In this document: piece by piece, positions 20,861 to 35,124 of the stretch
Position numbering within the stretch: the stretch's first letter is position 1
Layout of the letters: the number at the start of each line of letters is the position of its first letter
Assembly (NCBI GenBank): GCA_000146045.2
Contig: BK006948.2
Coordinates: forward strand, 320,001-384,000
Length of the DNA: 64,000 bases
DNA from: TPA_inf: Saccharomyces
Taxonomy: Eukaryota
Reading direction: 5' to 3'
Notes under the pieces: model-generated
What the model saw: the letters and a program-made list of their open reading frames with translations, nothing else
What the model was told of the DNA's origin: nothing
The model's database searches: none
Position numbers and translations under genes: made by a program

Positions 20861-21277
20861 AATTTCTAGTAAAGTGGTTATTGTCACTAGAAGATAATTA
20901 GCTATTAGTTTCATAACAATTTGTTATTTTGAAAATGTATAGTTTTATTAGGTGGTATTCATTTCAAAGAATTAACATGTTTAATGTTTGTTAAATCTAT
21001 GTAACTAAGTTAAGGTTGGTATTCAAATATATCATAAAAAAATTAATGAGTAGAAAAAAAAATAACTAATCTAATTTTGTTGTTCCTATTTAATGTTCCT
21101 CGTTACTTCCAGCTCTCCAGCTCTCAAATTCGAAATGTATGAATTTTTAGAGGATCATCATAATGTGAAAATGGAGATGATTTGGCAAAATGAAATCGGA
21201 AAAAGAAAAAATTAATGGGAAGGAACAAGACTTGCTTGGCAATAGTTTAAGAATATAATAATTTTTTTTGGGTTTCT

Positions 21278-22414
21278 TCAATCAGCTTCGTCTGGATTGA
21301 CCACTGTTAAAACGTTGTTTTTCCCTCCTGGTCCGCCATTTATGAATGTTCCGTTACTTATTCTCCTTGAGTCGTCGAAAGGGTTAATATCAGTTTGCCC
21401 TTTGGTGTGCTCCTCCTCGAAGCTACCTGAAGAGGGCCCGTGATTAGATGAAAATGAAGAGGCGTATAGTTTATCAGGGTACTCAACTGGTTTTATCGCC
21501 TCTTGGTATTCCTTTTCCATCCTGTCTTGTTCCCGCTTCATATTAATGTGTCTGACAATCAACAAGATACAAAGAGCAATGGCTACGGCTCCCACTACAC
21601 CACCTACAACGCCGCCTACAATTGCCCCTACATTGGCTTTCTTTTTATGAGTTTTACTTCCACTCGTAGAGTCAGATCCAGCTGTACCTGTGGCCGATCC
21701 TGAATTCTGTGCACTTGCCGTGATGGTGTTCGTGACAAAAATTGTGGAACCGCCCTCAGTGTGAAAAGTAGTGGAATAGATTATCGAAGTGGCGTCCTGT
21801 GATTGAGAGCTAGTACTGCTCGTTGCCAAAGTATCCGAAGTTAGCGAGCTTTCTGACGTTACAGTGCTCGAACTCTGTGACGTTGAAATAGAGGCAGCTG
21901 CTTGAGTTGACTCGGGGGAATTCTGTACTGTAGAGGAAGACGCCATTGATGATGTAGTTGATGATGTAGTCGATGATGTAGTTGATGTTGTGGAGGACGT
22001 TGTTGAAGAAGTTGTGGAAGACGACGCAGAAGTAGACTCCGTACTTGAATCTGAGCTGCTTATGCTATTGCTATTTGTGTCAGAGTCAAGTTGGTACACA
22101 GAATAGGCATCTTCACCACCACACATCTCACTGCTGTAACCAAAGCAATACGTATTACATGAAGAGGAAGTAGATTCCGAACCAGATGGATTAGTATCAC
22201 CACAATAACATTCTGAATGATTATAAAGGGCAAAGTAGCTTGCACCTTTTGCGCTACACTCACTGTTACAGTGTGAACTCGACTGCCAGTTATATGAATC
22301 GGCCTTTGAAAAGTCAGAGGGTAGTGAGCTAAAACAATTCACGTATTCATAGGCGTTCGCTTGCGATAAAATGGATAATAACGCCAGAAGCAGACTTGTT
22401 TTGTTCGGTCTCAT
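21278..22414 (-). CDS. SLG1: Cell-wall integrity sensor (WSC domain, Ser/Thr-rich stalk, single TM), 378 aa
   Basis: ATG at 22412-22414 (minus strand). Signal peptide, Cys-rich WSC domain, long S/T stretch and a TM segment (VGAIVGGVVGGVVGAVAIALCILLIV). 378 aa matches Slg1/Wsc1. Confidence 0.9.
   Translation of the reverse strand: MRPNKTSLLLALLSILSQANAYEYVNCFSSLPSDFSKADSYNWQSSSHCNSECSAKGASYFALYNHSECYCGDTNPSGSESTSSSCNTYCFGYSSEMCGGEDAYSVYQLDSDTNSNSISSSDSSTESTSASSSTTSSTTSSTTSTTSSTTSSTTSSMASSSTVQNSPESTQAAASISTSQSSSTVTSESSLTSDTLATSSTSSQSQDATSIIYSTTFHTEGGSTIFVTNTITASAQNSGSATGTAGSDSTSGSKTHKKKANVGAIVGGVVGGVVGAVAIALCILLIVRHINMKREQDRMEKEYQEAIKPVEYPDKLYASSFSSNHGPSSGSFEEEHTKGQTDINPFDDSRRISNGTFINGGPGGKNNVLTVVNPDEAD
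21945..22030. repeat. 12-bp coding tandem repeat (gatgatgtagtt-like, about 6 units) encoding the (SSTT)n stalk of SLG1
   Basis: Read directly: gatgatgtagttgatgatgtagtcgatgatgtagttgatgttgtggaggacgttgttgaagaagttgtggaagacgacgc. Confidence 0.7.
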
Positions 22415-23592
22415 TATTTAAATAGAATTTTTTATCCTGAGTACTAAATCAGCCAACGTACTATCCTGAATAAATGTGATGCAGATTCCTTTTTCTCCTC
22501 TTGGTTATCTCTCTTTTTCTCTCTCCTTATTAAAAAATTTACGGACAACGAGGAGCTTCTTTCTTGTTTACCTTGATTACCCTTTAAGCAATAACAATAT
22601 CAATACGAGATTTTCTGTAATGTTAGTGCCTGGTCGAGTTTACTGTATCGTCCAAGAAAACTACACTGCGTTAAATTCTTCCAAATGAGGCTATGATACG
22701 CCAAACACTTTTATTTTTCCCCTCCGTTTCTCTCGCTTTCGCTTCGAAAATTACATTATTTTCTTCCCCATGCAGCGTTATTTCCATCTTCAGAGAGGAA
22801 AGGCGGAGAAAATTTTTCTTGAGGAAGGAATTCTACGAAAGTAGTCAACTATATTACTAATCGTTTGACATAGAATGCCAAAGTTGCAGCTTTTCCACTA
22901 ACGTCAAATTTGCGTAACAAGCGCTGCTGTGTAAACTGTCTTGCTTTTTAATAGGACTGACAAAAATTATAAGCGGAGAGATAATATTTAATACTGCCAT
23001 TGACCTTAGTACCGGTACAGGACAATATGTTTGTATCCTTGGTGTCATAAAGAAGAGAAAAACAAGATAAGATCTCCACATTATTTTGCAGAAGGCGACT
23101 TTGGGGGCCGATGATATCTGCTTCCAGAAGTATGTAAAAAAATTACACACCATTAAGTTCTTATGTAAACCGAAGTCTGGAAGAGAGGTGGTGGAATTTC
23201 CAGTCTGCTACTAGGCAAAAAACTTGAAACACTTTCATATATGATGTTGTTTTGCCGAGCTATTACAAGACGATTTATCATAAACTACTTGCTTGAGCAG
23301 GAACGATTTCACAATCTGTTTAGCAGGTTGTTATGAAGTAGACACGATAAAGTTCTTGAAGAAAGATTGTGGATGGGTTTGCTGAAGCTTAGAACTAAGA
23401 AAAGAAACAAGCACGCGCAAGAAAACCGCTACGGCTAACTTCTAAGGTGAGGATATTGTGATTGTTTATGCCTCATATTTTGCGTTTTTATATGTTCTTC
23501 CTTCATACGGCGTGCAAATTATCCGCCGGCGAACAGGGTGCTATTCTAAAAGGAACTTTGAAACTGTAAACGCGGTGTACTGAAGGGGTCAT

Positions 23593-23600
23593 CTGAACGA
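23593..23600 (-). promoter_or_regulatory. Perfect AR1 anaerobic response element (TCGTTCAG, minus strand) overlapping an ATTGTTCG Rox1-like core, about 735 bp upstream of TIR4
   Basis: The plus strand reads atctgaacgaacaatatt; the minus strand reads AATATTGTTCGTTCAGAT. The AR1 consensus is TCGTTYAG (DAN/TIR promoters). Rox1 binds ATTGTT. Confidence 0.5.
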
Positions 23601-24101
23601 ACAATATTTTATGCTTTTGTTAGCCAAACGGTACTGATAAGGGACTGTGAAAAAAAAAAGACAATGTATGGGGTTCACGGTTTCCCAGATTCGTGTGTGT
23701 GTAATAATTCGTTTACGGCGCACGACAGACACTTCAGGAAATTTAAAGATCAGAATAGGCATACACTCCGCGCAAGGAAAACAAAAGTTGCTACCGTAAC
23801 CGGCTCGTACGGGGAAAGCAAGGTCATCTAGTGCTCACTTACGAACTGGCATAATCGAGTTGTGACTTCCAAACTTAACCGTACTCTCACAGCTGATGTG
23901 ATCCGAAGAAAACCCTGAAGATACAACAATGGCAACCAAAGGCAACTTAAAAAGGCAAACGAAGTACTTTTCAACAATAGCTTACACTGAAACTCGCGGA
24001 GAGGCGACGCTGCGCGCGAATTATCAGTAAAAATCTCGTAACAACCCATCTGCCACTTTTAGAAGGAATGGAAATTCTCAAAAAATGACGGAAAATAATA
24101 G

Positions 24102-24109
24102 AACAGGGT
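24102..24109 (-). promoter_or_regulatory. Perfect AR1 anaerobic response element (TCGTTTAG, minus strand), about 225 bp upstream of the TIR4 ATG
   Basis: The plus strand reads cctaaacgatgc; the reverse complement is gcaTCGTTTAGg. Confidence 0.5.
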
Positions 24110-24206
24110 TCCTAAACGATGCATTTCTAACAAGTAGGATAGTCCAAAAGGGAGGATGCAAATTCTTTGTTTTCCACGCAGTAAGATATGATCCCAAGCT
24201 TTCGAA

Positions 24207-24214
24207 TATAAAAA
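24207..24214 (+). promoter_or_regulatory. TATA box (TATAAAAA), about 120 bp upstream of the TIR4 ATG
   Basis: Read directly: cgaatataaaaaggg. Confidence 0.5.
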
Positions 24215-24334
24215 GGGAAGGATCGCTAGGACAGATCAGTTTTTAGCCCGTTTACTTATCTCGTTCCCTACTCTTGTTCTGATAGAAACCAGCAACAAAA
24301 ACCTATTCACTCGCTTATTAATACCATAAAAAAT

Positions 24335-25798
24335 ATGGCTTACTCTAAAATCACATTACTAGCCGCTCTTGCTGCTATTGCTTACGCTCAAACCCAAGCA
24401 CAAATCAACGAATTGAACGTTGTTTTAGATGATGTTAAGACCAACATTGCCGACTACATCACCCTATCCTACACTCCAAATTCAGGTTTTTCCTTGGACC
24501 AAATGCCAGCTGGTATTATGGATATTGCTGCGCAATTGGTTGCAAATCCAAGTGATGACTCCTACACCACTTTGTACTCTGAAGTGGACTTTTCTGCTGT
24601 TGAGCATATGTTGACTATGGTCCCATGGTACTCTTCTAGACTGCTTCCAGAATTAGAAGCAATGGATGCTTCTCTAACTACCTCAAGTTCTGCTGCCACA
24701 TCTTCAAGTGAAGTTGCTAGCTCTTCTATTGCTTCATCCACTAGCTCTTCTGTTGCACCATCCTCAAGTGAAGTTGTCAGCTCTTCCGTTGCACCATCCT
24801 CAAGTGAAGTTGTCAGCTCTTCCGTTGCACCATCCTCAAGTGAAGTTGTCAGCTCTTCCGTTGCTTCATCCTCAAGTGAAGTTGCCAGCTCCTCTGTTGC
24901 GCCATCCTCAAGTGAAGTTGTCAGCTCTTCCGTTGCTTCATCCTCAAGTGAAGTTGCCAGCTCCTCTGTTGCGCCATCCTCAAGTGAAGTTGTCAGCTCT
25001 TCCGTTGCACCATCCTCAAGTGAAGTTGTCAGCTCTTCCGTTGCTTCATCCTCAAGTGAAGTTGCCAGCTCCTCTGTTGCGCCATCCTCAAGTGAAGTTG
25101 TCAGCTCTTCCGTTGCTTCTTCTACAAGCGAAGCTACTAGTTCTTCTGCTGTCACATCTTCCTCCGCTGTTTCCTCTTCGACCGAGTCTGTTAGCTCTTC
25201 CTCTGTCAGTTCTTCCTCAGCCGTTTCCTCTTCTGAAGCTGTCAGTTCCTCTCCAGTTTCCTCAGTTGTTTCATCTTCGGCCGGACCTGCTAGCTCAAGC
25301 GTTGCTCCTTACAACTCAACCATTGCTAGCTCTTCTTCCACTGCCCAGACTTCTATCTCGACCATTGCTCCTTACAACTCCACAACCACCACCACCCCAG
25401 CTAGTTCTGCTTCCAGCGTTATTATCTCAACCAGAAACGGTACCACTGTTACTGAAACTGACAACACTCTTGTCACCAAAGAAACCACTGTCTGTGACTA
25501 CTCTTCAACATCTGCCGTTCCAGCTTCCACCACCGGTTACAACAATTCTACTAAGGTTTCAACCGCTACTATCTGCAGTACATGCAAAGAAGGTACCTCT
25601 ACTGCAACTGACTTCTCTACACTAAAGACTACAGTTACCGTATGTGACTCCGCCTGTCAAGCTAAGAAGTCTGCTACCGTTGTTAGCGTTCAATCTAAAA
25701 CTACCGGTATCGTTGAACAAACCGAAAACGGTGCTGCCAAGGCTGTTATCGGTATGGGTGCCGGTGCTTTAGCTGCTGTTGCCGCCATGCTACTATGA
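24335..25798 (+). CDS. TIR4: Srp1/Tip1-family (seripauperin-like) GPI cell-wall mannoprotein induced under anaerobiosis/cold, 487 aa
   Basis: ATG at 24335. Signal peptide, conserved N-terminal Tip1 domain (...YTTLYSEVDFSAV..MLTMVPWYSSRL..), long Ser-rich repeat region and a GPI-type hydrophobic C-terminus. 487 aa. Confidence 0.85.
   Translation: MAYSKITLLAALAAIAYAQTQAQINELNVVLDDVKTNIADYITLSYTPNSGFSLDQMPAGIMDIAAQLVANPSDDSYTTLYSEVDFSAVEHMLTMVPWYSSRLLPELEAMDASLTTSSSAATSSSEVASSSIASSTSSSVAPSSSEVVSSSVAPSSSEVVSSSVAPSSSEVVSSSVASSSSEVASSSVAPSSSEVVSSSVASSSSEVASSSVAPSSSEVVSSSVAPSSSEVVSSSVASSSSEVASSSVAPSSSEVVSSSVASSTSEATSSSAVTSSSAVSSSTESVSSSSVSSSSAVSSSEAVSSSPVSSVVSSSAGPASSSVAPYNSTIASSSSTAQTSISTIAPYNSTTTTTPASSASSVIISTRNGTTVTETDNTLVTKETTVCDYSSTSAVPASTTGYNNSTKVSTATICSTCKEGTSTATDFSTLKTTVTVCDSACQAKKSATVVSVQSKTTGIVEQTENGAAKAVIGMGAGALAAVAAMLL
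24725..25130. repeat. Coding minisatellite: about 10 near-identical tandem copies of a 36-bp unit (tcctcaagtgaagttgtcagctcttccgttgcacca, encoding PSSSEVVSSSVA) within TIR4
   Basis: Read directly. Units differ only by gca/gct or cca/tca and gtc/gcc substitutions. Confidence 0.9.
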
Positions 25799-26194
25799 TT
25801 TTAGTACGTGTCGAAAATGTTCGTTCCGCTTATGATTATATTATTATTTCAACTTACCAGTTAATGCTTAACTTTTAAACTGTCATATGTACTTCTCTGT
25901 ATTATATAAAAACTGACAACTGGCCTTTTCTATTGTTGATTTCTTTCATCCATCGTTAAATATTTTCAGAATGTGGGCAGGAAGACATGCATGTTTGAAG
26001 GTGCCTATCCTAGCATCATCATAAAAGAAAACGGTAAATCATTTCCGTTTTCAAAACGTACACTACAGCCTCCAGTTGATGAAATCAGTTCTCACAATAA
26101 TTCGAGGTTTAAAAGAAACAGTAAAATTTAAAAAAAACTATTCAATAGATAAATTGGTATATACGAACATTAAAAATTCCATTTAAAAATGAGA

Positions 26195-26950
26195 TTATAA
26201 TAACATGGCGGCAGCGGCCATGACACCAGCACCCATACCGATGACAGCCTTGGCAGCACCGTTTTCAGTTTGTTCGGAAACAGTGCTAGTGGCTTGAACT
26301 TGACCATCACTGATTTGAGAAATGGCGGAGGCTTTGGTGGAAGAAGCAACAGCTGAAGAAACAGCAGAGGAAGAAGCCTTAGTGGAAGAGGCAGCCTTGG
26401 TAGAGGAAGCGACGGTGGAAGAGGTAGCCTCACTGGAAGAAGCGACAGCAGAAGAAGTAGCAGCAGAAGAAGAAGCTTCACTGGAAGAAGCGACGGCAGA
26501 AGAAGTAGCTTCACTGGAGGAAGCGACGGCAGAAGAAGTAGTTTCACTGGAGGAAGCAACAGCGGAAGAAGTAGCAGCAGAAGAAGCTTCAGTAGAAGAG
26601 GCAGCGGTGGTAGAAGTTCCTAACAAGGATTCCAATTCTGGTAGAAGCCTGGAAGAATACCATGGAACCATGGTCAACATCTTGCTAACAGCAGCAAAGT
26701 CAACCTCAGAGTACAAAGTAGTGTAGGAGTCATCAGTGGCGGAAGCCAAAGCTAAACCGATGTCTAAAACACCAGATGGCAGACTGCTTAAGGAAAATCC
26801 AGATGAAGAATCTTCAGCCAAACTAATATATTCTTGCAAGTTGGACTTAACGTCATTCAAAATAACGTTCAATTCGTCAATTTCTTCCTGAGTTTGGGCA
26901 GAAGCCAAAGCAGCGATAGCAGCTAATAAAGCGATCTTGATGTAAGCCAT
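26195..26950 (-). CDS. TIR2: Srp1/Tip1-family GPI cell-wall mannoprotein (anaerobic/cold-shock induced), 251 aa
   Basis: ATG at 26948-26950 (minus strand). The N-terminal domain is paralogous to TIR4 (MAYIKIALLAAIAALASAQTQEEIDELNV...). Ser/Ala-rich repeats and a GPI-like C-terminus. 251 aa. Confidence 0.85.
   Translation of the reverse strand: MAYIKIALLAAIAALASAQTQEEIDELNVILNDVKSNLQEYISLAEDSSSGFSLSSLPSGVLDIGLALASATDDSYTTLYSEVDFAAVSKMLTMVPWYSSRLLPELESLLGTSTTAASSTEASSAATSSAVASSSETTSSAVASSSEATSSAVASSSEASSSAATSSAVASSSEATSSTVASSTKAASSTKASSSAVSSAVASSTKASAISQISDGQVQATSTVSEQTENGAAKAVIGMGAGVMAAAAMLL
26340..26620. repeat. Degenerate 36-bp-type Ser/Ala-rich coding repeats inside TIR2 (SSAVASSSEATS-like units)
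   Basis: Repetitive gaagaagtagc / ggaagaagcgacggcagaagaagtag units on the plus strand. These produce the spurious same-locus antisense ORFs in the track. Confidence 0.6.
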
Positions 26951-27043
26951 TTTTTTGTTATAGTTGAAGCGAGTGTACGAGTGTGTTTTGTATTATTGTG
27001 CTGATAATGGCTAAACTGGAAAAGAAGATGATATGTGAGAGCT

Positions 27044-27055
27044 CTCATTGTTCGA
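27044..27055 (+). promoter_or_regulatory. Rox1-type hypoxic operator match (CTCATTGTTCGA; consensus YYYATTGTTCTC), about 95 bp upstream of the TIR2 ATG
   Basis: Read directly. Additional ATTGT-containing copies lie at about 27640-27690 (ctctattgtgt, gctattgtgtg, ctttgttgttgg). Confidence 0.4.
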
Positions 27056-27129
27056 ATTTCGTTAACTACTTATATATTATTTTCCGTAGTTACGAAAGTT
27101 GAACATTACTTTGTTGTTTTCTTGCTTAC

Positions 27130-27137
27130 TCGTTTAC
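27130..27137 (+). promoter_or_regulatory. AR1-like element TCGTTTAC (one mismatch to TCGTTYAG) in the TIR2 upstream region
   Basis: Read directly: cttactcgtttactcac. Confidence 0.3.
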
Positions 27138-27718
27138 TCACATGATGCTCAGCTATTAAGATAGTTCAGTAGAACATCTTACACTAAACTTTGCACCACA
27201 ATGTTGATGGTTGCTTTGGGAGATCATTACGGAAAAAAAACTCTTGGCTTTCAAGGATTCCCTGCGACCTAACTCTGCACTCCTTCTGCAAGGTACTGTT
27301 TATTTTTTTCGTGTGTCCTTTACGAGGAACGAATAAAGGCTTGAAAGGTAGTTTTAAAGATGAACTTCTTCTTTTCTTTCTTTGCCTATGATTCCTCCAG
27401 GGTTTTCTTGCCTTCTACTTTTGGACAGAAATGTCTTTTTTGGGAAATGTGAGTCTCGTTTGGGAATCTTGGCCGGCCAAGATTTTATAAAGATGTTTCT
27501 GTAGGCAACGCGCTGCTCTAAGCACCGTGGGGAGGCCATGAAATATGATTGCGCGTAGTTCCCCAACGTTACGTTTATTTTTTTCTGGGCATAAAAAAAG
27601 CCAAGACATTCCCCACTGCTTTCCTACAGGCTCTCTATTGTGTATACTTTGCGCTATTGTGTGCTTTGTTGTTGGTCCGAAGATCGCATAAGAGGCACGC
27701 CTCTTATCAATTTCTTTA

Positions 27719-27733
27719 TAGGCGGCTACCGCC
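27719..27733. promoter_or_regulatory. URS1-like element embedded in a perfect palindrome GGCGGCTACCGCC (TAGGCGGCTA is a 9/10 match to the Ume6 URS1 TCGGCGGCTA)
   Basis: Read directly: ttataggcggctaccgccagtgg. The half-sites CGG-N3-CCG also fit a Zn-cluster factor site. Confidence 0.35.
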
Positions 27734-29678
27734 AGTGGAGTAAAATTCACGCCTTTTTTGTCCACTCCTTTTTCCGTAAATATTACATAATTAAATAGTC
27801 ACAGCTCTTACGCACCTGTTTGGCCGCACATGAGAGTTAAACGCAAACTCCGCCGAGGCGTCGTTTTTCTAGCTGCTGCTTCACGTTTTATGGAGTCATA
27901 TTCTGGTCTAAAAAAATTATACTAGGCAGGTAATGGATTGTTTTAAGTTTCTTGTTAACTCACATAGGATCTTTTTTGAGTACCTTGTGAAATGGTTAGA
28001 TTTGATACCTTATTTTTTTCCAACATTACATTATTTTAGTATCGTTCAAGTTCTCCTTTACTTTTAGAGATTACGCCTACATTATGTATGCCGAACTTAG
28101 TAGGAACTATTTGTACGCAAAACATGAATTGTTTGTCGTGTCTGCATACATTAGTGTTGACAGTCAGAGAACTTGATTTTAAAAATAAAAGTTTCTTGTT
28201 TACAAAAAAGTATGGTCACCCGGTGTCTTTGCTATAATGGGAACAGAAAACCATTTGCAAGACTACTAAAATACGATTTTGTAATTTGACGTTACAAATA
28301 TAGGGATAGTTGATAAATAGTTACGCGCAGTTAACTTTTCCTCACCAAAGGACAGTTATTTACCTACTGATTGAAAATGTTTTGGCACAGGATACCAGTT
28401 TTCAAATTTATTAATTAATTAAGGAGAAGTGAGAAATGATTAGAAAGCAATTAAGCGGTGAAGGTCTGCTTTTTATACTTACAAGAACGTATTATTAGCA
28501 GCCAACGCACTACAGTTGTTGACTAAGTTTTGTTTTAATTTGATTCGTAGTTGTTGGTCGAATTTTGTTTTGACTTGTTTTCAGTTTCTTTTTTTTTAAT
28601 GCCTGACGTTGAAGAGCACGCAGGCCTATGAAAAAAAAAAATTATACGAGTTACTTGGAATTCGCTCCCATTGCACCAATTTCAGGAAGCGATCAAAAAG
28701 AAAGCAATGTTATTCAACATAACTTTATTCATACTGTAGTAACAATAACTTCATATCAATTAGGATTCACTGTTCATTGACTTATCACTACAATATGGAG
28801 GAAACGTTGCGTAATCGTTGTCGCTATAGATATTGTCCCTCCCTTCCTCTGTGATAGTTCTTCTTTATATAACTTTCACAAAAGCTTCTGCCCTCATAGT
28901 TGCCCTCAATAAACGAAAGGCCAGATGCATACAGGTGCAGTAGTACATCCAAAGAAACATAGGGGCAAAAACCGTGTTCTAATATTAGACTGCATATATC
29001 CCCTTGTCATTAGCTTAAATCATATAGAGTAATATGTACATACAGGTTATTTTATTTGTAGCTTTCCTCCTCTTTATGGAGCAAAGTAAGCCATACGAAC
29101 GGTTTACAATAGAGAGCGTCGTTTGCTTACGTGATTGTCATGTGCCTTCGTAGGCAAAGGGGATTGCACACCTTTTTACTAAACAATAGAAAAGTGAGAA
29201 TTCTCTTATAGGCACTGCTGCTCCTCGTTTCTTTTTACGCGCTGTCGTTCCAGGTCCTTTTTTCGATTAACTACGGTAGTTTCAAAGAGAGTGCCTGAAG
29301 ATCACTCCATATACAGGCTAGATGAACTGTAAACGAGCTCATCAGCAGCGTCCCTTTCAGTGTCACTACAGCCACAGCAGCTTACCTCCTGTACGATGTG
29401 ACAGAGCAAAACACAAATGTGTGTCCTTTCTACTCTTATTTTCCAACTCGAATATAAAGACGGTGCCTTTGCCTTATTTCTAAGGCACTGAACAGTTCTA
29501 AAAGTAAAGTTTTCCCTAGCCTTAGTACCGTTTCTGTGAAGCAGTTATTGAATAGTTATTGGACATAAAAATCCATATTGAAAAAAAAAAAAACATACTT
29601 GAGAAGGCATTAGCTGAATAGTAAAGACTGCTGTAATTCATCTCTCAGTCCTTGCAGTCTGCTTTTTCTGGAATTAAT

Positions 29679-32600
29679 ATGTCAATTTCAAAGTACTTCA
29701 CTCCCGTTGCTGACGGGTCACTCACTTTCAATGGCGCGAACATTCAATTTGGCGCCGATGCTCAAGGCGAGTCAAAAAAGAGTTATGACGCTGAGGACAG
29801 CATGCCGAATCCGGCAAATCAACTAAATGACATAACCTTCCAAGCAGAGGCTGGTGAAATGGTTTTGGTTTTGGGTTATCCCACATCCACTCTATTTAAG
29901 ACTTTGTTTCATGGTAAAACTAGTTTGTCATACTCTCCTCCAGGCTCGATTAAATTTAAAAATAATGAGTTTAAGAGCTTTTCCGAAAAATGTCCCCACC
30001 AAATCATTTACAATAATGAACAAGATGTGCATTTCCCATTTCTAACGGTAGAACAAACAATTGATTTTGCCTTGAGTTGTAAGTTCGATATTCCAAAAGG
30101 TGAGCGCGATCAAATAAGAAATGAACTTCTAAGAGAATTCGGCCTGTCTCATGTATTGAAAACTATTGTAGGAAATGATTTTTTCCGTGGTGTTTCTGGT
30201 GGTGAGCGTAAACGTATTTCTATTATTGAAACGTTTATTGCTAATGGTTCCGTTTATCTATGGGATAATTCTACTAAAGGTTTAGATTCCGCCACAGCTC
30301 TCGATTTTTTGGAAATTCTTAGAAAAATGGCAAAAGCTACTCGTTCTGTAAACTTAGTCAGAATTTCCCAGGCAAGTGATAAAATTGTTGATAAGTTTGA
30401 CAAGATTCTTATGCTATCCGATTCCTACCAGCTTTTCTATGGTACGGTCGATGAGTGTTTGACTTATTTTCGTGACACTTTAGGTATTGAGAAAGATCCT
30501 AACGATTGTATTATTGAATATCTGACCTCTATCTTAAATTTTCAGTTCAAAAATAAAAATTTGGGGAATTTATCAAATTCATCATCTGCTAGCGTTCTCA
30601 AAACCGCAACAGGGGAAGTCACTAAGTATACTTATAATTCTGATTTCGATTTATATGATCAATGGAAACATTCTTCGTACTATAGAAATATAAAGCAGCA
30701 AATCCAGGGGTCTTCAATTGATGACTCCATTAAGGAAGTGGATCCCTCTGATGTCTCACCTATTTTTAATATTCCGTTGAAGAAACAATTATTATTTTGC
30801 ACAAAAAGAGCTTTTCAACGAAGTTTGGGTGATAAAGCTTATATGACGGCACAATTTATTTCTGTCGTTATTCAATCTTTGGTCATTGGTTCACTGTTTT
30901 ACGAAATTCCGTTGACTACCATTGGTTCATACTCAAGAGGTTCTTTAACCTTTTTCTCCATTCTTTTCTTCACTTTTCTTTCTCTTGCAGATATGCCTAT
31001 TGCCTTCCAAAGACAACCCGTCGTTAAAAAGCAATCCCAACTTCACTTCTATACTAACTGGGTTGAAACCCTTTCAACAACAGTGTTCGACTACTGCTTT
31101 AAACTTTGTTTGGTAATTGTATTCAGTATCATCCTATACTTCCTTGCTCACCTGCAATACAAGGCTGCAAGATTTTTCATTTTCCTCCTGTTCCTTTCCT
31201 TTTACAATTTCTGTATGGTGTCCTTATTCGCTTTGACGACACTAGTTGCTCCAACCATTTCAGTTGCAAATTTATTTGCAGGTATTCTGCTACTAGCTAT
31301 AGCAATGTATGCTTCTTACGTCATCTACCTGAAAAATATGCATCCTTGGTTTGTATGGATTGCTTATCTAAATCCTGCAATGTACGCTATGGAGGCAATA
31401 CTGTCTAATGAGCTTTACAATTTGAAGCTGGATTGTAGTGAGACAATTGTTCCAAGAGGTCCTACTTACAACGATGTTCCATTTTCCCATAAGGCCTGTG
31501 CTTGGCAAGGTGCTACTCTGGGTAATGATTACGTTAGAGGCCGTGATTACTTGAAGCAAGGTTTATCCTACACGTATCATCATGTGTGGAGAAACTTTGG
31601 TATTATCATTGGTTTCCTAGTATTCTTTATTGCCTGTACTCTGTTTGCATCTCAATATATTAAGCCTTATTTCAATAAGGATGAAATAGAGCGCAACAAT
31701 AGTCGTTTGACAAGATGGCTACCATTTTTGAATAAAAAGAGAGGTACCAGGTCCTCTGCAAGAAATGACAGTAAGTATGTTGGTATCCCAAAGTCGCACT
31801 CCGTTTCGTCTTCCTCGTCTAGCCTGTCGGCTGTTCCATATCAGATATCACCCTCAAATAAGGAAATGGCTCTAAACGATTATAACGAGCAACCTATCAC
31901 GGAAACAGTAGAGACTCAAAAGCATATCATCTCTTGGAAAAATATCAACTACACAGTTGGTACAAAGAAACTGATTAATAATGCATCCGGTTTCATCAGT
32001 TCTGGTTTGACCGCCTTAATGGGTGAGTCCGGTGCAGGTAAAACTACTTTGCTGAATGTCTTATCACAAAGAGTTGAGACAGGTGTTGTTAGCGGCGAAA
32101 TTTTGATCGATGGCCACCCATTGACAGATGAGGACGCGTTTAAGAGAAGTATTGGTTTTGTTCAACAACAGGATTTGCATCTAGATTTGCTGTCTGTGAA
32201 AGAATCTCTGGAAATATCATGTCTTTTGAGAGGTGATGGTGACAGGGCATACTTAGACACTGTTTCAAATTTACTGAAATTGCCATCTGACATTTTAGTC
32301 GCTGATTTAAACCCGACTCAAAGGAAGCTTTTATCTATCGGTGTTGAACTTGTTACTAAGCCTTCACTTTTATTATTCCTAGACGAACCAACCTCTGGGC
32401 TGGACGCTGAGGCTGCACTAACAATCGTCAAATTTTTAAAACAACTTTCTTTACAGGGTCAGGCTATTTTTTGTACCATTCATCAGCCTAGTAAAAGTGT
32501 CATCAGCCATTTTGACAATATTTTCTTATTGAAAAGGGGTGGTGAATGTGTCTTCTTTGGACCAATGGACGATGCCTGCGGCTATTTCATGTCTCATGAC

Positions 32601-33863
32601 AACACGCTCGTTTACGATAAAGAACATGATAACCCTGCAGATTTCGTCATTGATGCAGTAGGTAACAGTAACTCCTCGGCAGGGAAAGATACAGCGGAGG
32701 AAGCTCTTACTTTGAACAAAGAAGCCATAGATTGGAGTGCATTATGGGAATCTTCTGTAGAAAAGAAACTAGTTAAAAAAGAAACAGCTAGGTTAGAAGA
32801 TGATGCTCGTGCGTCTGGTGTTGATTACACAACCTCATTGTGGAAGCAGCCTTCCTACTTACAGCAATTAGCTCTTATTACAAGAAGACAATATATTTGT
32901 ACGAAAAGAGACATGACTTATGTCATGGCCAAGTACTGTTTGAATGGTGGCGCTGGTTTGTTTATCGGTTTCTCATTTTGGCACATTAAGCATAATATTA
33001 TCGGTTTGCAGGATAGTATCTTCTTCTGTTTCATGGCTCTTTGTGTTTCATCTCCATTGATCAATCAAATTCAGGACAAAGCCTTGAAAACAAAGGAAGT
33101 TTATGTTGCTAGGGAGGCGAGATCTAACACTTATCACTGGACTGTTCTTCTTTTGTCACAGTCAATTATTGAACTACCACTGGCACTTACAAGTTCCACA
33201 CTATTTTTCGTCTGTGCCTTTTTCTCTTGTGGATTTAACAACGCTGGCTGGAGTGCCGGTGTTTTCTTTTTAAACTATATGCTTTTCGCTGCTTATTACT
33301 CGACTCTTGGTTTATGGCTGATCTATACTGCTCCTAATCTACAAACTGCTGCTGTTTTTGTTGCGTTTATTTACAGTTTTACAGCATCATTCTGTGGTGT
33401 TATGCAACCATACTCTTTGTTTCCAACTTTTTGGAAATTCATGTACAGGGTTTCGCCATACACATATTTTGTGGAAACTTTTGTTAGTATTCTATTGCAT
33501 AACTGGGAAATCAAGTGTGACATGTCGGAGATGGTTCCTGGTCAACCTCTGACGGGGCAATCTTGTGGCCAATTTATGGAAGCTTTCATAGAAGAATACG
33601 GTGGCTATCTACATAATAAGAACACTTTCACAGTCTGCGCTTATTGTACGTACACTGTTGGCGATGACTTCCTGAAAAATGAGAATATGAGTTACGACCA
33701 CGTTTGGAGGAACTTTGGTATTGAATGGGCTTTTGTTGGTTTCAATTTCTTTGCGATGTTTGCTGGTTACTACTTAACTTACGTGGCAAGAATATGGCCA
33801 AAGGTCTTTAAAATTATCACCAAAGTAATTCCACACAGAGGGAAGAAGCCTGTACAGAACTAA
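29679..33863 (+). CDS. AUS1: Plasma-membrane ABC transporter (PDR/ABCG subfamily, two NBD plus two TMD) for anaerobic sterol uptake, 1394 aa
   Basis: The track ORF starts at TTG 29652; the first ATG is at 29679 (MSISKYFTPV...). Two ABC signature regions (VSGGERKRISI; Walker A GESGAGKTTLLN; LSGGQ-like TQRKLLSIGVE) and 12 predicted TM helices. The 1394-aa length matches Aus1. Confidence 0.9.
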   Translation: MSISKYFTPVADGSLTFNGANIQFGADAQGESKKSYDAEDSMPNPANQLNDITFQAEAGEMVLVLGYPTSTLFKTLFHGKTSLSYSPPGSIKFKNNEFKSFSEKCPHQIIYNNEQDVHFPFLTVEQTIDFALSCKFDIPKGERDQIRNELLREFGLSHVLKTIVGNDFFRGVSGGERKRISIIETFIANGSVYLWDNSTKGLDSATALDFLEILRKMAKATRSVNLVRISQASDKIVDKFDKILMLSDSYQLFYGTVDECLTYFRDTLGIEKDPNDCIIEYLTSILNFQFKNKNLGNLSNSSSASVLKTATGEVTKYTYNSDFDLYDQWKHSSYYRNIKQQIQGSSIDDSIKEVDPSDVSPIFNIPLKKQLLFCTKRAFQRSLGDKAYMTAQFISVVIQSLVIGSLFYEIPLTTIGSYSRGSLTFFSILFFTFLSLADMPIAFQRQPVVKKQSQLHFYTNWVETLSTTVFDYCFKLCLVIVFSIILYFLAHLQYKAARFFIFLLFLSFYNFCMVSLFALTTLVAPTISVANLFAGILLLAIAMYASYVIYLKNMHPWFVWIAYLNPAMYAMEAILSNELYNLKLDCSETIVPRGPTYNDVPFSHKACAWQGATLGNDYVRGRDYLKQGLSYTYHHVWRNFGIIIGFLVFFIACTLFASQYIKPYFNKDEIERNNSRLTRWLPFLNKKRGTRSSARNDSKYVGIPKSHSVSSSSSSLSAVPYQISPSNKEMALNDYNEQPITETVETQKHIISWKNINYTVGTKKLINNASGFISSGLTALMGESGAGKTTLLNVLSQRVETGVVSGEILIDGHPLTDEDAFKRSIGFVQQQDLHLDLLSVKESLEISCLLRGDGDRAYLDTVSNLLKLPSDILVADLNPTQRKLLSIGVELVTKPSLLLFLDEPTSGLDAEAALTIVKFLKQLSLQGQAIFCTIHQPSKSVISHFDNIFLLKRGGECVFFGPMDDACGYFMSHDNTLVYDKEHDNPADFVIDAVGNSNSSAGKDTAEEALTLNKEAIDWSALWESSVEKKLVKKETARLEDDARASGVDYTTSLWKQPSYLQQLALITRRQYICTKRDMTYVMAKYCLNGGAGLFIGFSFWHIKHNIIGLQDSIFFCFMALCVSSPLINQIQDKALKTKEVYVAREARSNTYHWTVLLLSQSIIELPLALTSSTLFFVCAFFSCGFNNAGWSAGVFFLNYMLFAAYYSTLGLWLIYTAPNLQTAAVFVAFIYSFTASFCGVMQPYSLFPTFWKFMYRVSPYTYFVETFVSILLHNWEIKCDMSEMVPGQPLTGQSCGQFMEAFIEEYGGYLHNKNTFTVCAYCTYTVGDDFLKNENMSYDHVWRNFGIEWAFVGFNFFAMFAGYYLTYVARIWPKVFKIITKVIPHRGKKPVQN

Positions 33864-34032
33864 TACCATTTTTAAATATATTTCTACTTTCTACTTAATA
33901 GCAATTTTAATTAATCTAATTATTTACAAGTCACCAATGACTGACTAAACAATTGAAAGAGTCCTTTGTACAACAAAAAAAAAGATACTTGTCGCTGACG
34001 CTCAAAAAATATTTATATAGCAAAAGTGCACG

Positions 34033-34040
34033 ACAAAAAA
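34033..34040 (-). terminator. Pol III terminator T-run (T6 on the tRNA strand), 3' of tRNA-Thr
   Basis: The plus strand reads gacaaaaaa immediately after the tRNA 3' end. Confidence 0.7.
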
Positions 34041-34113
34041 TGCTTCCAATCGGATTTGAACCGATGATCTCCACATTACTAGTGTGGCGCCTTACCAACT
34101 TGGCCATAGAAGC
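34041..34113 (-). tRNA. tT(AGU): tRNA-Thr, anticodon AGU, 73 nt, no intron
   Basis: The minus strand reads GCTTCTATGGCCAAGTTGGTAAGGCGCCACACTAGTAATGTGGAGATCATCGGTTCAAATCCGATTGGAAGCA. Anticodon stem CCACA/TGTGG, loop CTAGTAA. T-loop is GGTTCAAATCC. Confidence 0.9.
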
Positions 34114-34128
34114 AGTAAACCGTTATTT

Positions 34129-34467
34129 TGTTGTTTCTCAGAGTGGTACACGTCAGTATGACAATACATCATCCTAAAACGTTCATATGAAACAACCTTA
34201 TAACAAAACGAACAGAATGAGCAACATGACATATAACTTCGCCTCCCTTAGCTTAACCACCCAAACGTATAGACGCCTGAGCAATTAATTTAGATCCGAG
34301 GTTCGGCGCTTCCACCAATTAATATGATCCATATTTTATATAATATATAGGATAAGTAACATCCCATGAAAAGCTGATAATCCGTTCTGACAACTGGTTA
34401 CTTCCATTGACTGTTTATATTGGGATTTTCAAGACACCCCGGTATTACTCGTACCCGTAAAACAACA
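34129..34467 (+). mobile_element. Solo sigma element (Ty3 LTR), about 339 bp, beginning 16 bp upstream of the tRNA-Thr 5' end
   Basis: TGTTGTTTCTCAGAGTGGTACACGTCAGTATGACAATAC...CCTTATAACAAAACGAAC...TTAGATCCGAGGTTCGGCGCTTCCACCAATTAATATGATCCATATTTTATATAATATATAGGATAAGTAACA...ACTCGTACCCGTAAAACAACA matches the sigma consensus end to end, with its TGTTG...CAACA termini. The 16-bp distance from a Pol III gene is the Ty3 integration hallmark. Confidence 0.85.
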
Positions 34468-34681
34468 TACACTTCGTCATGACTGAGAAGAATATAGGAG
34501 TAAAAAGAATACCTGAACTAACAGATATAATCAGCATCATGTTTTTTAAGCGAGAATACAGAAATATTCAAATTAAGATAGGCAACAAGGATTAGTTTAA
34601 ATCTGAAAATCTTTTAAGATTAGGTACCTAATTTAGCTATATTGCTTTATGATTAGTTATAACGTCATTGGAGGAACAAAC

Positions 34682-35010
34682 TATTGGAATAAGAATCGAC
34701 TATAATCTACCGGCGAGTATTCATAAGCTATTATATTGTGGTAGACGGAGTAGAAAGATAAAAAAGGATTGAAAACAGTCATCTGATTTAATGGAAGCTG
34801 AAATGCAAGATTTAATAATGTAATAGGATAATGAATGACAACATAAAAAATAGAAGAAATAATAATAGTAACATTATGTGGAAATATGGGTTTCCTTGGC
34901 AGGTTCCTATATCCTTGAGAAAGAGCTTCTAATATATTTTGTATATTTAGTATTATAACTAAGCTGTTAGAAAATAAAATACCGCTAAATCAATTGAGGC
35001 GGTATTAAAT
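34682..35010 (+). mobile_element. Diverged solo LTR of Ty4 tau type (copia-like, related to Ty1 delta), about 330 bp
   Basis: Starts TATTGGAATAAGAATCGACTATAATCTACC (compare LTR terminus TGTTGGAATAAAAATC.ACTATC.TCTA). Internal GGAAGCTGAAATGCAAGATTTAATAATGTAATAGGATAATGAA and GGTTCCTATATCCTTGAGAAAGAGCTTCTAATATAT match the conserved tau/delta blocks (recalled consensus). The 3' boundary is uncertain. Confidence 0.5.
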
Positions 35011-35081
35011 ACCTGTACATTTGAATATTTGGAATGAGAAAGAAATATAGTTACATAATGTACAAAAAAGAAGCAAGAAAG

Positions 35082-35084
<3 letters not shown>

Positions 35085-35115: not shown

Positions 35116-35121
<6 letters not shown>

Positions 35122-35124
35122 TGT

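What the first reader, a model, noticed from the sequence alone, without database searches (positions are those of the whole stretch)
22415..33863. Compact anaerobic gene cluster TIR4, TIR2, AUS1 with unusually long promoters
Three adjacent genes are induced under anaerobiosis/sterol limitation: two Srp1/Tip1-family cell-wall mannoproteins (TIR4, TIR2) and the sterol importer AUS1. They carry 1.9-kb (TIR4) and a shared 2.7-kb divergent (TIR2/AUS1) ORF-free upstream regions; typical yeast promoters are under 0.6 kb. TIR2 and AUS1 are divergently transcribed, so the 2.7-kb region could act as a bidirectional hypoxia-controlled unit (Rox1/Mot3 repression, Upc2 activation). Perfect AR1 elements (TCGTTCAG at 23593-23600; TCGTTTAG at 24102-24109), multiple ATTGTT Rox1-type cores and AR1-like sites are visible. 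The cluster is internal (about 17-27 kb from CEN15), whereas most DAN/TIR/PAU genes are subtelomeric.
Basis: partly seen in the sequence, partly recalled or inferred. Interest (0 to 1): 0.5.

Follow-up and report, generated by a model that had tools for sequence, protein, structure and literature searches.

The report
Known yeast anaerobic genes, padded promoters
These are the well-known yeast anaerobic genes TIR4, TIR2 and AUS1; the long gaps upstream of them are real, but each consists of ordinary-to-longish promoters (0.7-0.9 kb) plus fast-evolving filler DNA, not one giant shared control region.

Summary
The window is S. cerevisiae chromosome XV. The three genes are TIR4, TIR2 and AUS1, 17.7-27.2 kb from the centromere.

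The gaps are 1,920 bp (SLG1-TIR4) and 2,728 bp (TIR2-AUS1), against a window median of about 416 bp. Similar lengths hold in five Saccharomyces species.

Published work already shows that all three genes are anaerobic "signature" transcripts, activated by Upc2 and repressed by Mot3/Rox1.

Alignment of five species splits each gap into parts:
- Conserved zones next to each start codon: TIR4 about 920 bp, TIR2 about 700 bp, AUS1 about 730 bp, SLG1 about 400 bp.
- Poorly conserved spacers at 22816-23414 and 27651-28950.

Every Upc2-core, Mot3-like and ATTGTT site conserved in all five species lies within about 630 bp of its gene. No conserved element lies in the middle of the TIR2-AUS1 gap, so the idea of a 2.7-kb bidirectional unit is not supported.

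Two details need correcting. One AR1 coordinate is off by 10 (correct: 24112-24119). The "ORF-free" TIR4 gap holds a 98-aa ORF found only in S. cerevisiae.

Side result: pairing of a mannoprotein gene with the sterol importer gene predates the whole-genome duplication.

Verdict: ordinary and already known.

The parts
22415..22815 (-). Conserved promoter zone next to SLG1, the divergent neighbour that shares the 1.9-kb gap with TIR4
   Evidence: Bases 22615-22814 are 57-74% invariant across five species. Identity to S. paradoxus is 0.90 and to S. eubayanus 0.71. SLG1 is the WSC-domain ORF at 21278-22414(-).
22816..23414 (.). Poorly conserved spacer in the SLG1-TIR4 gap. It contains an S. cerevisiae-specific 98-aa ORF at 22857-23153(-).
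   Evidence: 13-25% invariant per 100 bp. Identity is 0.73 to S. paradoxus and 0.49 to S. eubayanus. The ORF is interrupted by stops in three other species. Ten strain annotations call a 74-aa gene here. Polymorphism is 6.7 sites per kb, against 2.5-3.3 per kb in the flanking zones.
23415..24334 (+). Conserved TIR4 promoter zone, about 920 bp. Its sites are:
- AR1 at 23593-23600(-)
- Upc2 core TCGTTTA at 23709-23715(+)
- Mot3-like AAGGCA at 23939-23944 and 23952-23957
- AACAATAG (RACAATAG, with an ATTGTT core) at 23973-23980
- AR1 TCGTTTAG at 24112-24119(-)
- TATAAAAA at 24207-24214
   Evidence: 32-66% invariant per 100 bp. The sites at 23709, 23939, 23952, 23973 and 24113 are kept in all five species; the TATA at 24207 was checked only in the four-species alignment and is kept in all four. 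The AR1 at 23593 is kept only in S. paradoxus and S. kudriavzevii. AR1 count is 2 against 0.08 expected.
24335..25798 (+). TIR4 ORF, 487 aa: signal peptide, SRP1/TIP1 domain, Ser-rich array of 36-nt repeats (24671-25233), and a GPI-type C-terminus
   Evidence: Pfam PF00660, E = 2.8e-30. Repeats. Translation. Protein length varies from 415 to 522 aa among strains.
26195..26950 (-). TIR2 ORF, 251 aa: an inverted paralogue of TIR4
   Evidence: Pfam PF00660 and PIR. 100% identical to Tir2p. Inverted-repeat arms 24329-24445 / 26840-26956 and 25715-25783 / 26207-26275. Translation.
26951..27650 (-). Conserved TIR2 promoter zone, about 700 bp. Its sites are:
- TATATAAG at 27069-27076(-)
- Upc2 core TCGTTTA at 27130-27136
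- paired TCGT cores (TACGAGGAACGA) near 27320-27335
- invariant blocks at 27455-27465 (CTCGTTTGGGA) and 27472-27481 (GCCGGCCAAG)
   Evidence: 31-47% invariant per 100 bp. Alignment shown. The core at 27130 is kept in all five species. Identity is 0.86 to S. paradoxus and 0.72 to S. eubayanus.
27651..28950 (.). Fast-evolving central spacer of the TIR2-AUS1 gap, about 1.3 kb. It holds a TCGTATA at 28643-28649(-) that is shared only with S. paradoxus.
   Evidence: 1-25% invariant per 100 bp. Identity is 0.77 to S. paradoxus with 12% gaps, and 0.54 to S. eubayanus with 26% gaps. Polymorphism is 13.8 segregating sites per kb, against 4.3 and 6.9 in the flanks. No Rfam match, no 11/11 ARS consensus, no gene relic.
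28951..29678 (+). Conserved AUS1 promoter zone, about 730 bp. Its sites are:
- Mot3-like TGCCT/AGGCA at 29143-29148, 29151-29156, 29292-29297 and 29464-29469
- ATTGTT at 29182-29187(-)
- Upc2 cores TCGTTTA at 29330-29336(-) and TCGTACA at 29390-29396(-)
- TATA-like AATATAAAGA at 29451-29460
   Evidence: The 100-bp windows from 29051 to 29650 are 37-56% invariant; the two edge windows (28951-29050 and 29651-29678) are 25% and 21%. The listed Upc2, Mot3-like and ATTGTT sites are kept in all five species, and the TATA-like sequence 29451-29460 is an invariant block in all five. AGGCA count is 8 against 1.4 expected, P < 0.002.
29679..33863 (+). AUS1 ORF, 1394 aa: PDR-type ABC sterol importer
   Evidence: Two ABC_tran, two ABC2_membrane and PDR_CDR domains. 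Exact match to S288C NP_014654 'ATP-binding cassette sterol transporter AUS1'.
34040..34114 (-). tRNA-Thr(AGU), 177 bp past the AUS1 stop codon. The same tRNA in the same orientation follows the importer locus in three other loci.
   Evidence: ARAGORN and Rfam. A tRNA-Thr(AGU) on the minus strand follows PDR11-MNT3 in L005, and follows the ABC gene and MNT3-like gene in Z. mrakii (L007) and T. globosa (L008).

Best explanation
TIR4, TIR2 and AUS1 are three independently promoted members of the known Upc2-activated, Mot3/Rox1 (Tup1-Cyc8)-repressed anaerobic and sterol-depletion regulon.

Each gene has its own promoter, longer than average but not extraordinary: about 0.9 kb for TIR4, 0.7 kb for TIR2 and 0.73 kb for AUS1. 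Each holds a TATA element, one to three Upc2 cores (TCGTTTA / TCGTACA / AR1) and, for AUS1 and TIR4, Mot3-like AGGCA sites and an ATTGTT core.

When oxygen, heme and sterol fall, Rox1/Mot3 repression lapses and sterol-free Upc2 enters the nucleus and binds these cores. All three genes therefore rise together because they share trans-acting factors, not because they share DNA.

The rest of each gap (22816-23414 and 27651-28950) is weakly constrained or unconstrained spacer.

The cluster exists because a mannoprotein gene and the sterol importer gene were already neighbours before the whole-genome duplication. A copy of that arrangement came to lie between SLG1 and RTS1 before Saccharomyces and Nakaseomyces split.

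What is shown here: gene identities, gap lengths, the conservation pattern, site enrichment and synteny. What is taken from the literature: induction and regulator dependence. What is inferred: that the conserved sites are the functional ones and that the spacer is dispensable.
For: Identities.

Co-induction and regulators: PMC2292174 Table 3, PMC2767370, PMC5412356, PMC7397035.

Footprints:
- Conserved zones are 31-66% invariant per 100 bp, against 1-25% in the spacers.
- Promoter zones are 0.86-0.90 identical to S. paradoxus and 0.68-0.72 to S. eubayanus. The spacers are 0.73-0.77 and 0.49-0.54. Ordinary neighbouring intergenic regions are 0.75-0.82 and 0.54-0.66.
- Every site conserved in all five species lies within about 630 bp of its start codon.

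Enrichment against dinucleotide shuffles:
- AR1: 2 against 0.08.
- TCGTWYA: 7 against 1.24.
- AGGCA in the AUS1-proximal zone: 8 against 1.4.

Polymorphism among ten strains plus the window's own S288C sequence is 2-3 times higher in the spacers.

The paralogous TIR3-PDR11 divergent pair manages with 1.29 kb, and the T. globosa pair with 0.51 kb.

In N. bracarensis the gap is 5.37 kb. Upc2 cores again sit near the two ends, 329 bp from the TIR gene's start codon and 838-1317 bp from the AUS1 start codon, with none in between.
Against: - Gap length is maintained: 2,496-2,956 bp for TIR2-AUS1 and 1,920-1,956 bp for SLG1-TIR4 in five species, and 2,725-2,729 bp in ten S. cerevisiae strains. This could reflect selection on spacing.
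- Alignment-based footprinting misses binding-site turnover. S. cerevisiae and S. paradoxus have a TCGTATA at about -1,037 from AUS1, and S. eubayanus has a TCGTWTA at -1,345. The centre has 3 TCGTWYA against 0.67 expected (P about 0.03).
- No expression, ChIP or deletion data for this particular gap could be examined here.
Confidence: 0.78

Rival explanations
1. One reading: the whole 2.7-kb TIR2-AUS1 gap is one bidirectional hypoxia-controlled unit, in which shared or distal Upc2, Rox1 and Mot3 sites drive both genes.
For: - The genes are divergent and both are induced anaerobically.
- The gap as a whole is enriched for TCGTWYA (7 against 1.24) and HAGGYA (19 against 7.9).
- A perfect SRE, TCGTATA, sits mid-gap at 28643-28649.
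- The gap length is kept across species.
Against: - The centre is essentially unconserved, at 1-25% invariant, and is more polymorphic than the flanks.
- The mid-gap SRE is absent from S. kudriavzevii, S. arboricola and S. eubayanus at the aligned position.
- The enrichment is carried mainly by the two proximal zones.
- TIR3-PDR11 and the non-WGD pairs show that 0.5-1.3 kb is enough for this kind of gene pair.
Confidence: 0.1
2. The spacer has a function that does not depend on its sequence. It might insulate weakly expressed TIR2 from AUS1, phase a repressive Tup1-Cyc8 nucleosome array, or host an unannotated regulatory non-coding transcript. Under this view its length is selected rather than its sequence.
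For: - Length is kept within about ±8% (TIR2-AUS1) and ±1% (SLG1-TIR4) in five species despite sequence turnover.
- Length is unchanged in ten strains.
- The gap is even larger (5.37 kb) and free of long ORFs in Nakaseomyces.
- TIR2 is reported to be expressed 50-fold lower than TIR1 anaerobically (PMC9551191), so neighbouring genes are not expressed equally.
Against: - There is no Rfam hit.
- No conserved block of 9 nt or more lies in the centre.
- The gap differs 10-fold among loci with the same gene pair: 0.5, 1.2, 1.3, 2.7 and 5.4 kb.
- Length stability over this time span is also expected under neutrality when large indels are rare.
Confidence: 0.12
3. An explanation of origin, compatible with the best explanation: the spacer is what remains of a lost gene. 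The ancestral order was TIR1-like, TIR3-like, ABC importer, MNT3, tRNA-Thr. In the AUS1 copy, the TIR3-like gene (between TIR2 and AUS1) and MNT3 were lost and decayed.
For: - T. globosa has the order TIR1-like(-), TIR3-like(-), ABC(+), MNT3(-), tRNA-Thr(-). The gene next to the ABC gene is most similar to TIR3 (54%), and the distal gene is most similar to TIR1/TIR2 (48% / 45%).
- TIR2 is 83% identical to TIR1 in the N-terminal domain.
- A tRNA-Thr(AGU) on the minus strand directly follows AUS1.
- One source annotation calls AUS1 an 'ohnolog of YIL013C PDR11'.
Against: - tblastn with TIR, MNT3 and RraA proteins against the gaps of six species finds nothing better than E = 0.58.
- Gordon et al. 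2009 class AUS1, PDR11, TIR2 and TIR4 as gained genes.
- Seret et al. 2009 found no evidence that the AUS1/PDR11 pair came from the WGD.
- tRNA-Thr(AGU) is a multi-copy gene family.
Confidence: 0.25

Closest known systems
DAN/TIR/PAU anaerobic cell-wall mannoprotein regulon plus the sterol importers AUS1 and PDR11 (Upc2/Ecm22 activation through AR1/SRE sites; Rox1, Mot3 and Tup1-Cyc8 repression)
   Same: - The genes are the same.
- AR1 / TCGTTTA cores are conserved in all three promoters.
- Mot3-like sites are enriched at AUS1.
- The RACAATAG motif reported to co-occur with the Upc2 motif is present and conserved at TIR4.
   Different: Nothing differs in kind. The only addition here is a base-level map showing which parts of the long gaps are conserved.
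TIR3-PDR11 divergent pair on S. cerevisiae chromosome IX
   Same: A Srp1/Tip1 mannoprotein gene is divergent from the paralogous sterol importer gene. Upc2 cores and many AGGCA sites lie in the gap, and a tRNA-Thr(AGU) lies downstream.
   Different: The gap is only 1.29 kb, with no spacer. MNT3 is retained between the importer and the tRNA. The mannoprotein belongs to the TIR3 subfamily rather than the TIR1 subfamily.
Shared bidirectional promoters such as GAL1-GAL10
   Same: Divergent, co-induced genes.
   Different: GAL1-GAL10 shares one central UAS in a short gap (from my own knowledge). Here the centre is unconserved and the conserved sites sit next to each gene.
Very long, fully used yeast promoters (FLO11, HO, IME1; from my own knowledge)
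   Same: More than 2 kb of gene-free upstream DNA before a tightly regulated, TATA-containing gene.
   Different: In those cases regulatory elements are spread over 2-3 kb. Here conservation stops at about 0.7-0.9 kb.

Membership tests
Srp1/Tip1 (DAN/TIR) anaerobic mannoproteins | N-terminal signal peptide plus SRP1_TIP1 domain | tested here: met
   PF00660, E = 2.8e-30 for TIR4 and 2e-35 for TIR2. Translations.
Srp1/Tip1 (DAN/TIR) anaerobic mannoproteins | Ser/Thr-rich repeat region and a GPI-type hydrophobic C-terminus | tested here: met
   36-nt and 33-nt repeat arrays. C-terminus ...ENGAAKAVIGMGAG..AAMLL.
Srp1/Tip1 (DAN/TIR) anaerobic mannoproteins | Upc2 (AR1 / TCGTTTA) site in the promoter | tested here: met
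   TIR4: 24112-24119 and 23709-23715. TIR2: 27130-27136. All are kept in five species.
Srp1/Tip1 (DAN/TIR) anaerobic mannoproteins | Anaerobic induction | not testable with these tools
   From the literature only: PMC2292174 Table 3 and PMC2767370 cluster 14.
AUS1/PDR11 sterol-import ABC transporters | Full-size NBD-TMD-NBD-TMD PDR architecture and sequence identity to Aus1 | tested here: met
   Pfam domains. Exact match to NP_014654. 68% identical to PDR11.
AUS1/PDR11 sterol-import ABC transporters | Control by Upc2 and Mot3 | tested here: inconclusive
   Upc2 cores at 29330 and 29390 and four AGGCA sites are conserved, and AGGCA is enriched. Actual binding and regulator dependence come only from the literature.
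Shared bidirectional promoter (one control region serving both divergent genes) | Divergent orientation with co-regulation | tested here: met
   Orientation. Co-induction from the literature.
Shared bidirectional promoter (one control region serving both divergent genes) | A common, centrally placed regulatory element under constraint | tested here: not met
   The centre, 27651-28950, is 1-25% invariant with no conserved block or site. It is also more polymorphic than the flanks.
Very long functional promoter (more than 2 kb of regulatory DNA) | Constrained elements spread across the whole upstream region | tested here: not met
   Conservation is confined to about 920 bp (TIR4), 700 bp (TIR2) and 730 bp (AUS1).
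Conserved functional gene cluster (like the DAL or GAL clusters) | Adjacency of functionally linked, non-homologous genes kept across species | tested here: met
   TIR and ABC importer genes are adjacent in:
- five Saccharomyces species and N. bracarensis
- S. cerevisiae TIR3-PDR11
- T. globosa and Z. mrakii
- T. phaffii, judged by consecutive locus tags
(tags). They are not adjacent in N. dairenensis or K. naganishii.
Conserved functional gene cluster (like the DAL or GAL clusters) | Selection for linkage as such | not testable with these tools
   This would need a phylogeny-wide test of how often linkage is retained compared with random gene pairs.

The most novel reading that the evidence does not exclude
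The cell-wall mannoprotein gene and the ABC sterol importer gene form an ancient two-gene sterol-uptake module that predates the WGD. Its ancestral order was TIR1-like, TIR3-like, ABC, MNT3, tRNA-Thr(AGU). The module has been inherited or copied as a block at least twice. On this reading AUS1-TIR2/TIR4 is the second surviving copy, and the 2.7-kb gap marks where the TIR3-like member was lost. The papers read here (Krause & Hittinger 2022; Seret et al. 2009; Gordon et al. 2009) do not state this linkage. It would give a genomic argument that Tir proteins and Aus1/Pdr11 work together physically in sterol import.
Probability: 0.35. Interest if true: 0.4.

Novelty: already known. Interest (0 to 1): 0.18.

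Why it matters
For the finding as written, it matters little. The genes, their anaerobic induction and their regulators are textbook yeast biology, and the internal location has been discussed in print.

There are two practical gains:
- A base-level map of which parts of the two long gaps are under constraint. It tells anyone building hypoxia-responsive reporters or editing this locus that about 0.7-0.9 kb per gene should be enough, and that 27651-28950 and 22816-23414 are probably safe to alter.
- The observation that mannoprotein-importer adjacency, with a trailing tRNA-Thr, predates the whole-genome duplication. This bears modestly on the open question of how Tir/Dan proteins cooperate with Aus1/Pdr11 in sterol uptake.

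Tried and rejected
- Rfam scan of 19000-38000 at E ≤ 1: only the two tRNAs and one spurious antisense hit. Nothing in either gap.
- ARS consensus WTTTAYRTTTW: no 11/11 match in either gap, so there is no support for a replication origin explaining the spacer.
- Repeat search: no similarity between the TIR4 and TIR2 promoters. The paralogy stops 6 bp upstream of the start codons. No LTR-like repeat is shared with the tRNA-proximal AUS1-RTS1 gap.
- Gene-relic search: tblastn with TIR1-4, non-WGD TIR, MNT3 and RraA proteins against the gaps of six species and against the AUS1-RTS1 gap. Best E = 0.58, so nothing was found.
- The 98-aa ORF at 22857-23153 as a real conserved gene: rejected, because it is broken by stops in three species.
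- Rox1 full consensus YYYATTGTTCTC: no match anywhere in the window.
- Abramova et al. 2001 (PMC1461566) could not be read because it is not held. The AR1 definitions were taken from later papers instead.
- A first strain alignment of the left gap was spoiled by the huge TIR4 repeat array in L020. It was redone on anchored coordinates.


Full report
**What is there**

The region holds four genes:
- 21278-22414(-): a 378-aa WSC-domain protein, SLG1.
- 24335-25798(+): a 487-aa SRP1/TIP1-family protein.
- 26195-26950(-): a 251-aa SRP1/TIP1 + PIR protein.
- 29679-33863(+): a 1394-aa full-size PDR-type ABC transporter.

The ABC protein matches S. cerevisiae S288C Aus1 (NP_014654) exactly. The 251-aa protein is 100% identical to proteins deposited as Tir2p. 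The 487-aa neighbour is therefore TIR4, since TIR2 and TIR4 are described as adjacent (PMC9551191). Both Tir proteins have a signal peptide, Ser-rich tandem repeats and a GPI-type C-terminus.

A perfect centromere CDEIII match at 6592-6608 places the cluster 17.7-27.2 kb from the centromere.

**The gaps**

The gaps are 1,920 bp (22415-24334) and 2,728 bp (26951-29678). From the ORF list, I tally the median gap between neighbouring genes in this window at about 416 bp. These two gaps are 4.6 and 6.6 times that. Only the AUS1-RTS1 gap, which carries a tRNA, is longer.

Three corrections apply:
- The first gap is shared with the divergent SLG1, so it is not all TIR4 upstream DNA.
- It contains a 98-aa ATG ORF at 22857-23153(-). 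Public strain annotations call a 74-aa gene there, but the ORF is interrupted by stops in S. paradoxus, S. kudriavzevii and S. eubayanus.
- The second perfect AR1 is at 24112-24119, not 24102-24109. There is no perfect AR1 in the TIR2-AUS1 gap.

**Is the motif content more than chance?**

I compared counts with 500 dinucleotide-preserving shuffles.
- TIR4-proximal 920 bp: 2 perfect AR1 sites against 0.08 expected (P about 0.002), and 4 ATTGTT against 0.94 (P about 0.016).
- TIR2-AUS1 gap: 7 TCGTWYA Upc2-type cores against 1.24 (none of 500 shuffles reached this), and 19 Mot3-type HAGGYA against 7.9.
- AUS1-proximal 728 bp alone: 8 AGGCA/TGCCT against 1.4.
- ATTGTT is not enriched in the TIR2-AUS1 gap (5 against 3.3).
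- The full Rox1 consensus is absent from the window.

**What is already known**

- AUS1, TIR2 and TIR4 are three of the 12 listed up-regulated "signature" transcripts for anaerobiosis (PMC2292174).
- They fall in one expression cluster with DAN1-4, TIR1-4, UPC2 and ERG genes. Promoters in that cluster are enriched for BTAWACGA (the Upc2 site) and RACAATAG (PMC2767370).
- Reviews state that Upc2 acts through sites in DAN/TIR, AUS1 and PDR11 promoters. Upc2 binds TAAACGA (AR1b) and TATACGA (AR1c/SRE) with similar affinity. Mot3 represses AUS1 and PDR11 in normoxia, and Rox1/Mot3/Tup1-Cyc8 repress anaerobic genes (PMC5412356, PMC7397035).
- Gordon et al. [quoted passage not shown]

The coordinated induction, the regulators and the unusual internal location are therefore all in print.

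**Testing the "long promoter / bidirectional unit" idea**

I fetched the orthologous loci of S. paradoxus (L001), S. eubayanus (L002/L003), S. kudriavzevii (L004) and S. arboricola (L012). Gene order and orientation are identical in all of them.

Gap lengths are kept:
- SLG1-TIR4: 1920, 1950, 1956, 1921, 1929 bp.
- TIR2-AUS1: 2728, 2678, 2496, 2956, 2836 bp.

Sequence conservation, however, is sharply zoned. The table gives the fraction of S. cerevisiae bases invariant in all five species, per 100 bp.

| Zone | Coordinates | Invariant fraction |
|---|---|---|
| SLG1 promoter core | 22615-22815 | 0.57-0.74 |
| Spacer, gap A | 22815-23415 | 0.13-0.25 |
| TIR4 promoter | 23415-24334 | 0.32-0.66 |
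| TIR2 promoter | 26951-27650 | 0.31-0.47 |
| Spacer, gap B | 27651-28950 | 0.01-0.25 |
| AUS1 promoter | 29051-29678 | 0.37-0.56 |

Pairwise identity tells the same story.

| Region | Identity to S. paradoxus | Identity to S. eubayanus |
|---|---|---|
| Promoter zones | 0.86-0.90 | 0.68-0.72 |
| Two spacers | 0.73-0.77 | 0.49-0.54 (19-26% gaps) |
| Ordinary neighbouring intergenic regions | 0.75-0.82 | 0.54-0.66 |

Among ten S. cerevisiae strains plus the window's own S288C sequence, the spacers also carry more segregating sites:
- Gap B centre: 13.8 per kb, against 4.3 and 6.9 in the flanks.
- Gap A spacer: 6.7 per kb, against 2.5 and 3.3 in the flanks.

**Where the conserved sites are**

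Sites kept in all five species:
- TIR4: Upc2 cores at 23709-23715 and 24113-24119, two AAGGCA at 23939 and 23952, and AACAATAG at 23973-23980. The TATAAAAA at 24207 was checked only in the four-species alignment and is kept in all four.
- TIR2: TCGTTTA at 27130-27136, plus invariant blocks at 27455-27465 and 27472-27481. A paired TCGT element lies near 27320-27335.
- AUS1: TCGTTTA at 29330-29336, TCGTACA at 29390-29396, ATTGTT at 29182-29187, and AGGCA/TGCCT at 29143, 29151, 29292 and 29464. The TATA-like AATATAAAGA at 29451-29460 is an invariant block in all five species.

All lie within about 630 bp of the relevant start codon. The mid-gap TCGTATA (28643-28649) is kept only in S. paradoxus.

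**Other checks on the spacers**

- No Rfam family matches either gap.
- There is no full ARS consensus match.
- No repeat is shared with other parts of the locus.
- No relic of a TIR, MNT3 or RraA gene is detectable.

**Most likely mechanism**

The three genes are co-induced because each has its own set of Upc2 activator sites and Mot3/Rox1 repressor sites. They do not share a giant control region. The functional promoters are longish (0.7-0.9 kb), as expected for TATA-containing, combinatorially regulated stress genes. The remaining 0.6 kb and 1.3 kb behave as weakly constrained or unconstrained spacer.

Caveats:
- Footprinting cannot see binding-site turnover. A distal Upc2-type core exists at about -1.04 kb from AUS1 in S. 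cerevisiae and S. paradoxus, and at -1.35 kb in S. eubayanus.
- Length conservation could reflect selection on spacing.
- I could not examine expression or ChIP data for this gap.

I put about 0.78 on the separate-promoters-plus-spacer model, about 0.1 on a true bidirectional unit, and about 0.12 on a sequence-independent spacer function.

**Where the cluster comes from (side result)**

- In S. cerevisiae, the paralogous importer gene PDR11 is also divergent from a mannoprotein gene, TIR3. The gap is 1.29 kb, and MNT3 and a tRNA-Thr(AGU) on the minus strand follow.
- In the non-WGD yeast Torulaspora globosa the order is RraA-like, TIR1-like(-), TIR3-like(-), ABC(+), MNT3(-), tRNA-Thr(-), with only 513 bp between the TIR gene and the ABC gene.
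- Zygotorulaspora mrakii has TIR(+), ABC(+), MNT3(-), tRNA-Thr(-).
- In the window, a tRNA-Thr(AGU) on the minus strand lies 177 bp past AUS1.
- Nakaseomyces bracarensis has TIR(+), TIR(-), a 5.37-kb gap with no ORF longer than 96 aa, AUS1(+), RTS1 and PET127. This is syntenic with the window.
- In Tetrapisispora phaffii the two families carry consecutive locus tags.
- The linkage is absent in N. dairenensis and K. naganishii.

So the mannoprotein-importer pairing predates the whole-genome duplication, and the chromosome XV arrangement predates the Saccharomyces/Nakaseomyces split. The gap may mark a lost TIR3-like gene, but no relic is detectable. The papers I read name an ancestral mannoprotein locus, or discuss AUS1/PDR11 neighbourhoods, without stating this linkage.

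**Verdict**

The biology is already known. The one new mechanistic suggestion, a 2.7-kb bidirectional unit, is not supported by comparative evidence. Interest is low.

Noticed in passing
window 34040-34114(-); L005 14624-14696(-); L007 16172-16244(-); L008 16185-16257(-): A tRNA-Thr(AGU) on the strand opposite the importer gene lies just downstream of the AUS1/PDR11-type gene in four loci. In the window it directly follows AUS1. In the PDR11 locus and in the two non-WGD species it follows MNT3. This suggests the AUS1 block was copied together with the tRNA and later lost MNT3.
   Followed up: partly
L005 5863-8000; L008 7628-10000; L007 8122-10000; L006 1-8000: A Srp1/Tip1 mannoprotein gene sits next to the sterol importer gene in several loci: S. 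cerevisiae TIR3-PDR11 (divergent, 1.29 kb), T. globosa (two TIR genes, 0.51 kb), Z. mrakii (tandem, 1.18 kb) and N. bracarensis (5.37 kb). In T. globosa the gene next to the importer is TIR3-like and the distal one is TIR1-like.
   Followed up: partly
window 24671-25233; L020 1-3454: The TIR4 36-nt Ser-rich repeat array varies in copy number between strains, giving proteins of 415-522 aa in nine strains. In assembly GCA_905220315.1 the array is at least 3.45 kb (about 95 units) and runs off the fetched locus, where an ORF of at least 1831 aa is called.
   Followed up: partly
window 24329-24445 vs 26840-26956; 25715-25783 vs 26207-26275: TIR4 and TIR2 are tail-to-tail inverted paralogues. Their similarity is 77-86% at the N- and C-terminal coding ends and stops 6 bp upstream of the start codons, so the two promoters share no detectable similarity.
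   Followed up: yes
window 22857-23153(-): A 98-aa ATG ORF lies here, and ten public strain annotations call a 74-aa gene from it. It sits in the least conserved part of the SLG1-TIR4 gap and is broken by stops and frameshifts in three other Saccharomyces species. It is likely a species-specific or spurious ORF.
   Followed up: yes
window 22415-24334 and orthologous gaps in L001, L002, L004, L012: The SLG1-TIR4 gap length is almost constant across five species (1920-1956 bp), even though its central 600 bp is only 13-25% invariant. I have no explanation for this.
   Followed up: no
window 33864-37673: The 3.8-kb AUS1-RTS1 gap aligns poorly even with S. paradoxus (0.46 identity). It contains a (TA)n tract at 35083-35130 and small ORFs at 36537-37221. 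Gene calls in this gap differ between strains: 68-aa, 204-aa and 225-aa genes. This may reflect turnover linked to the nearby tRNA.
   Followed up: no
window 6592-6608(-): A perfect CDEIII-type centromere motif (TGTATATGACTTCCGAA) occurs here. It is the only match in the window, against 0.06 expected.
   Followed up: partly
L006 2627-8000: In Nakaseomyces bracarensis the TIR-AUS1 gap is 5.37 kb, 32% GC, with no ORF above 96 aa. Upc2-type cores lie only near its ends: 329 bp from the TIR gene's start codon, and 838-1317 bp from the AUS1 start codon.
   Followed up: partly
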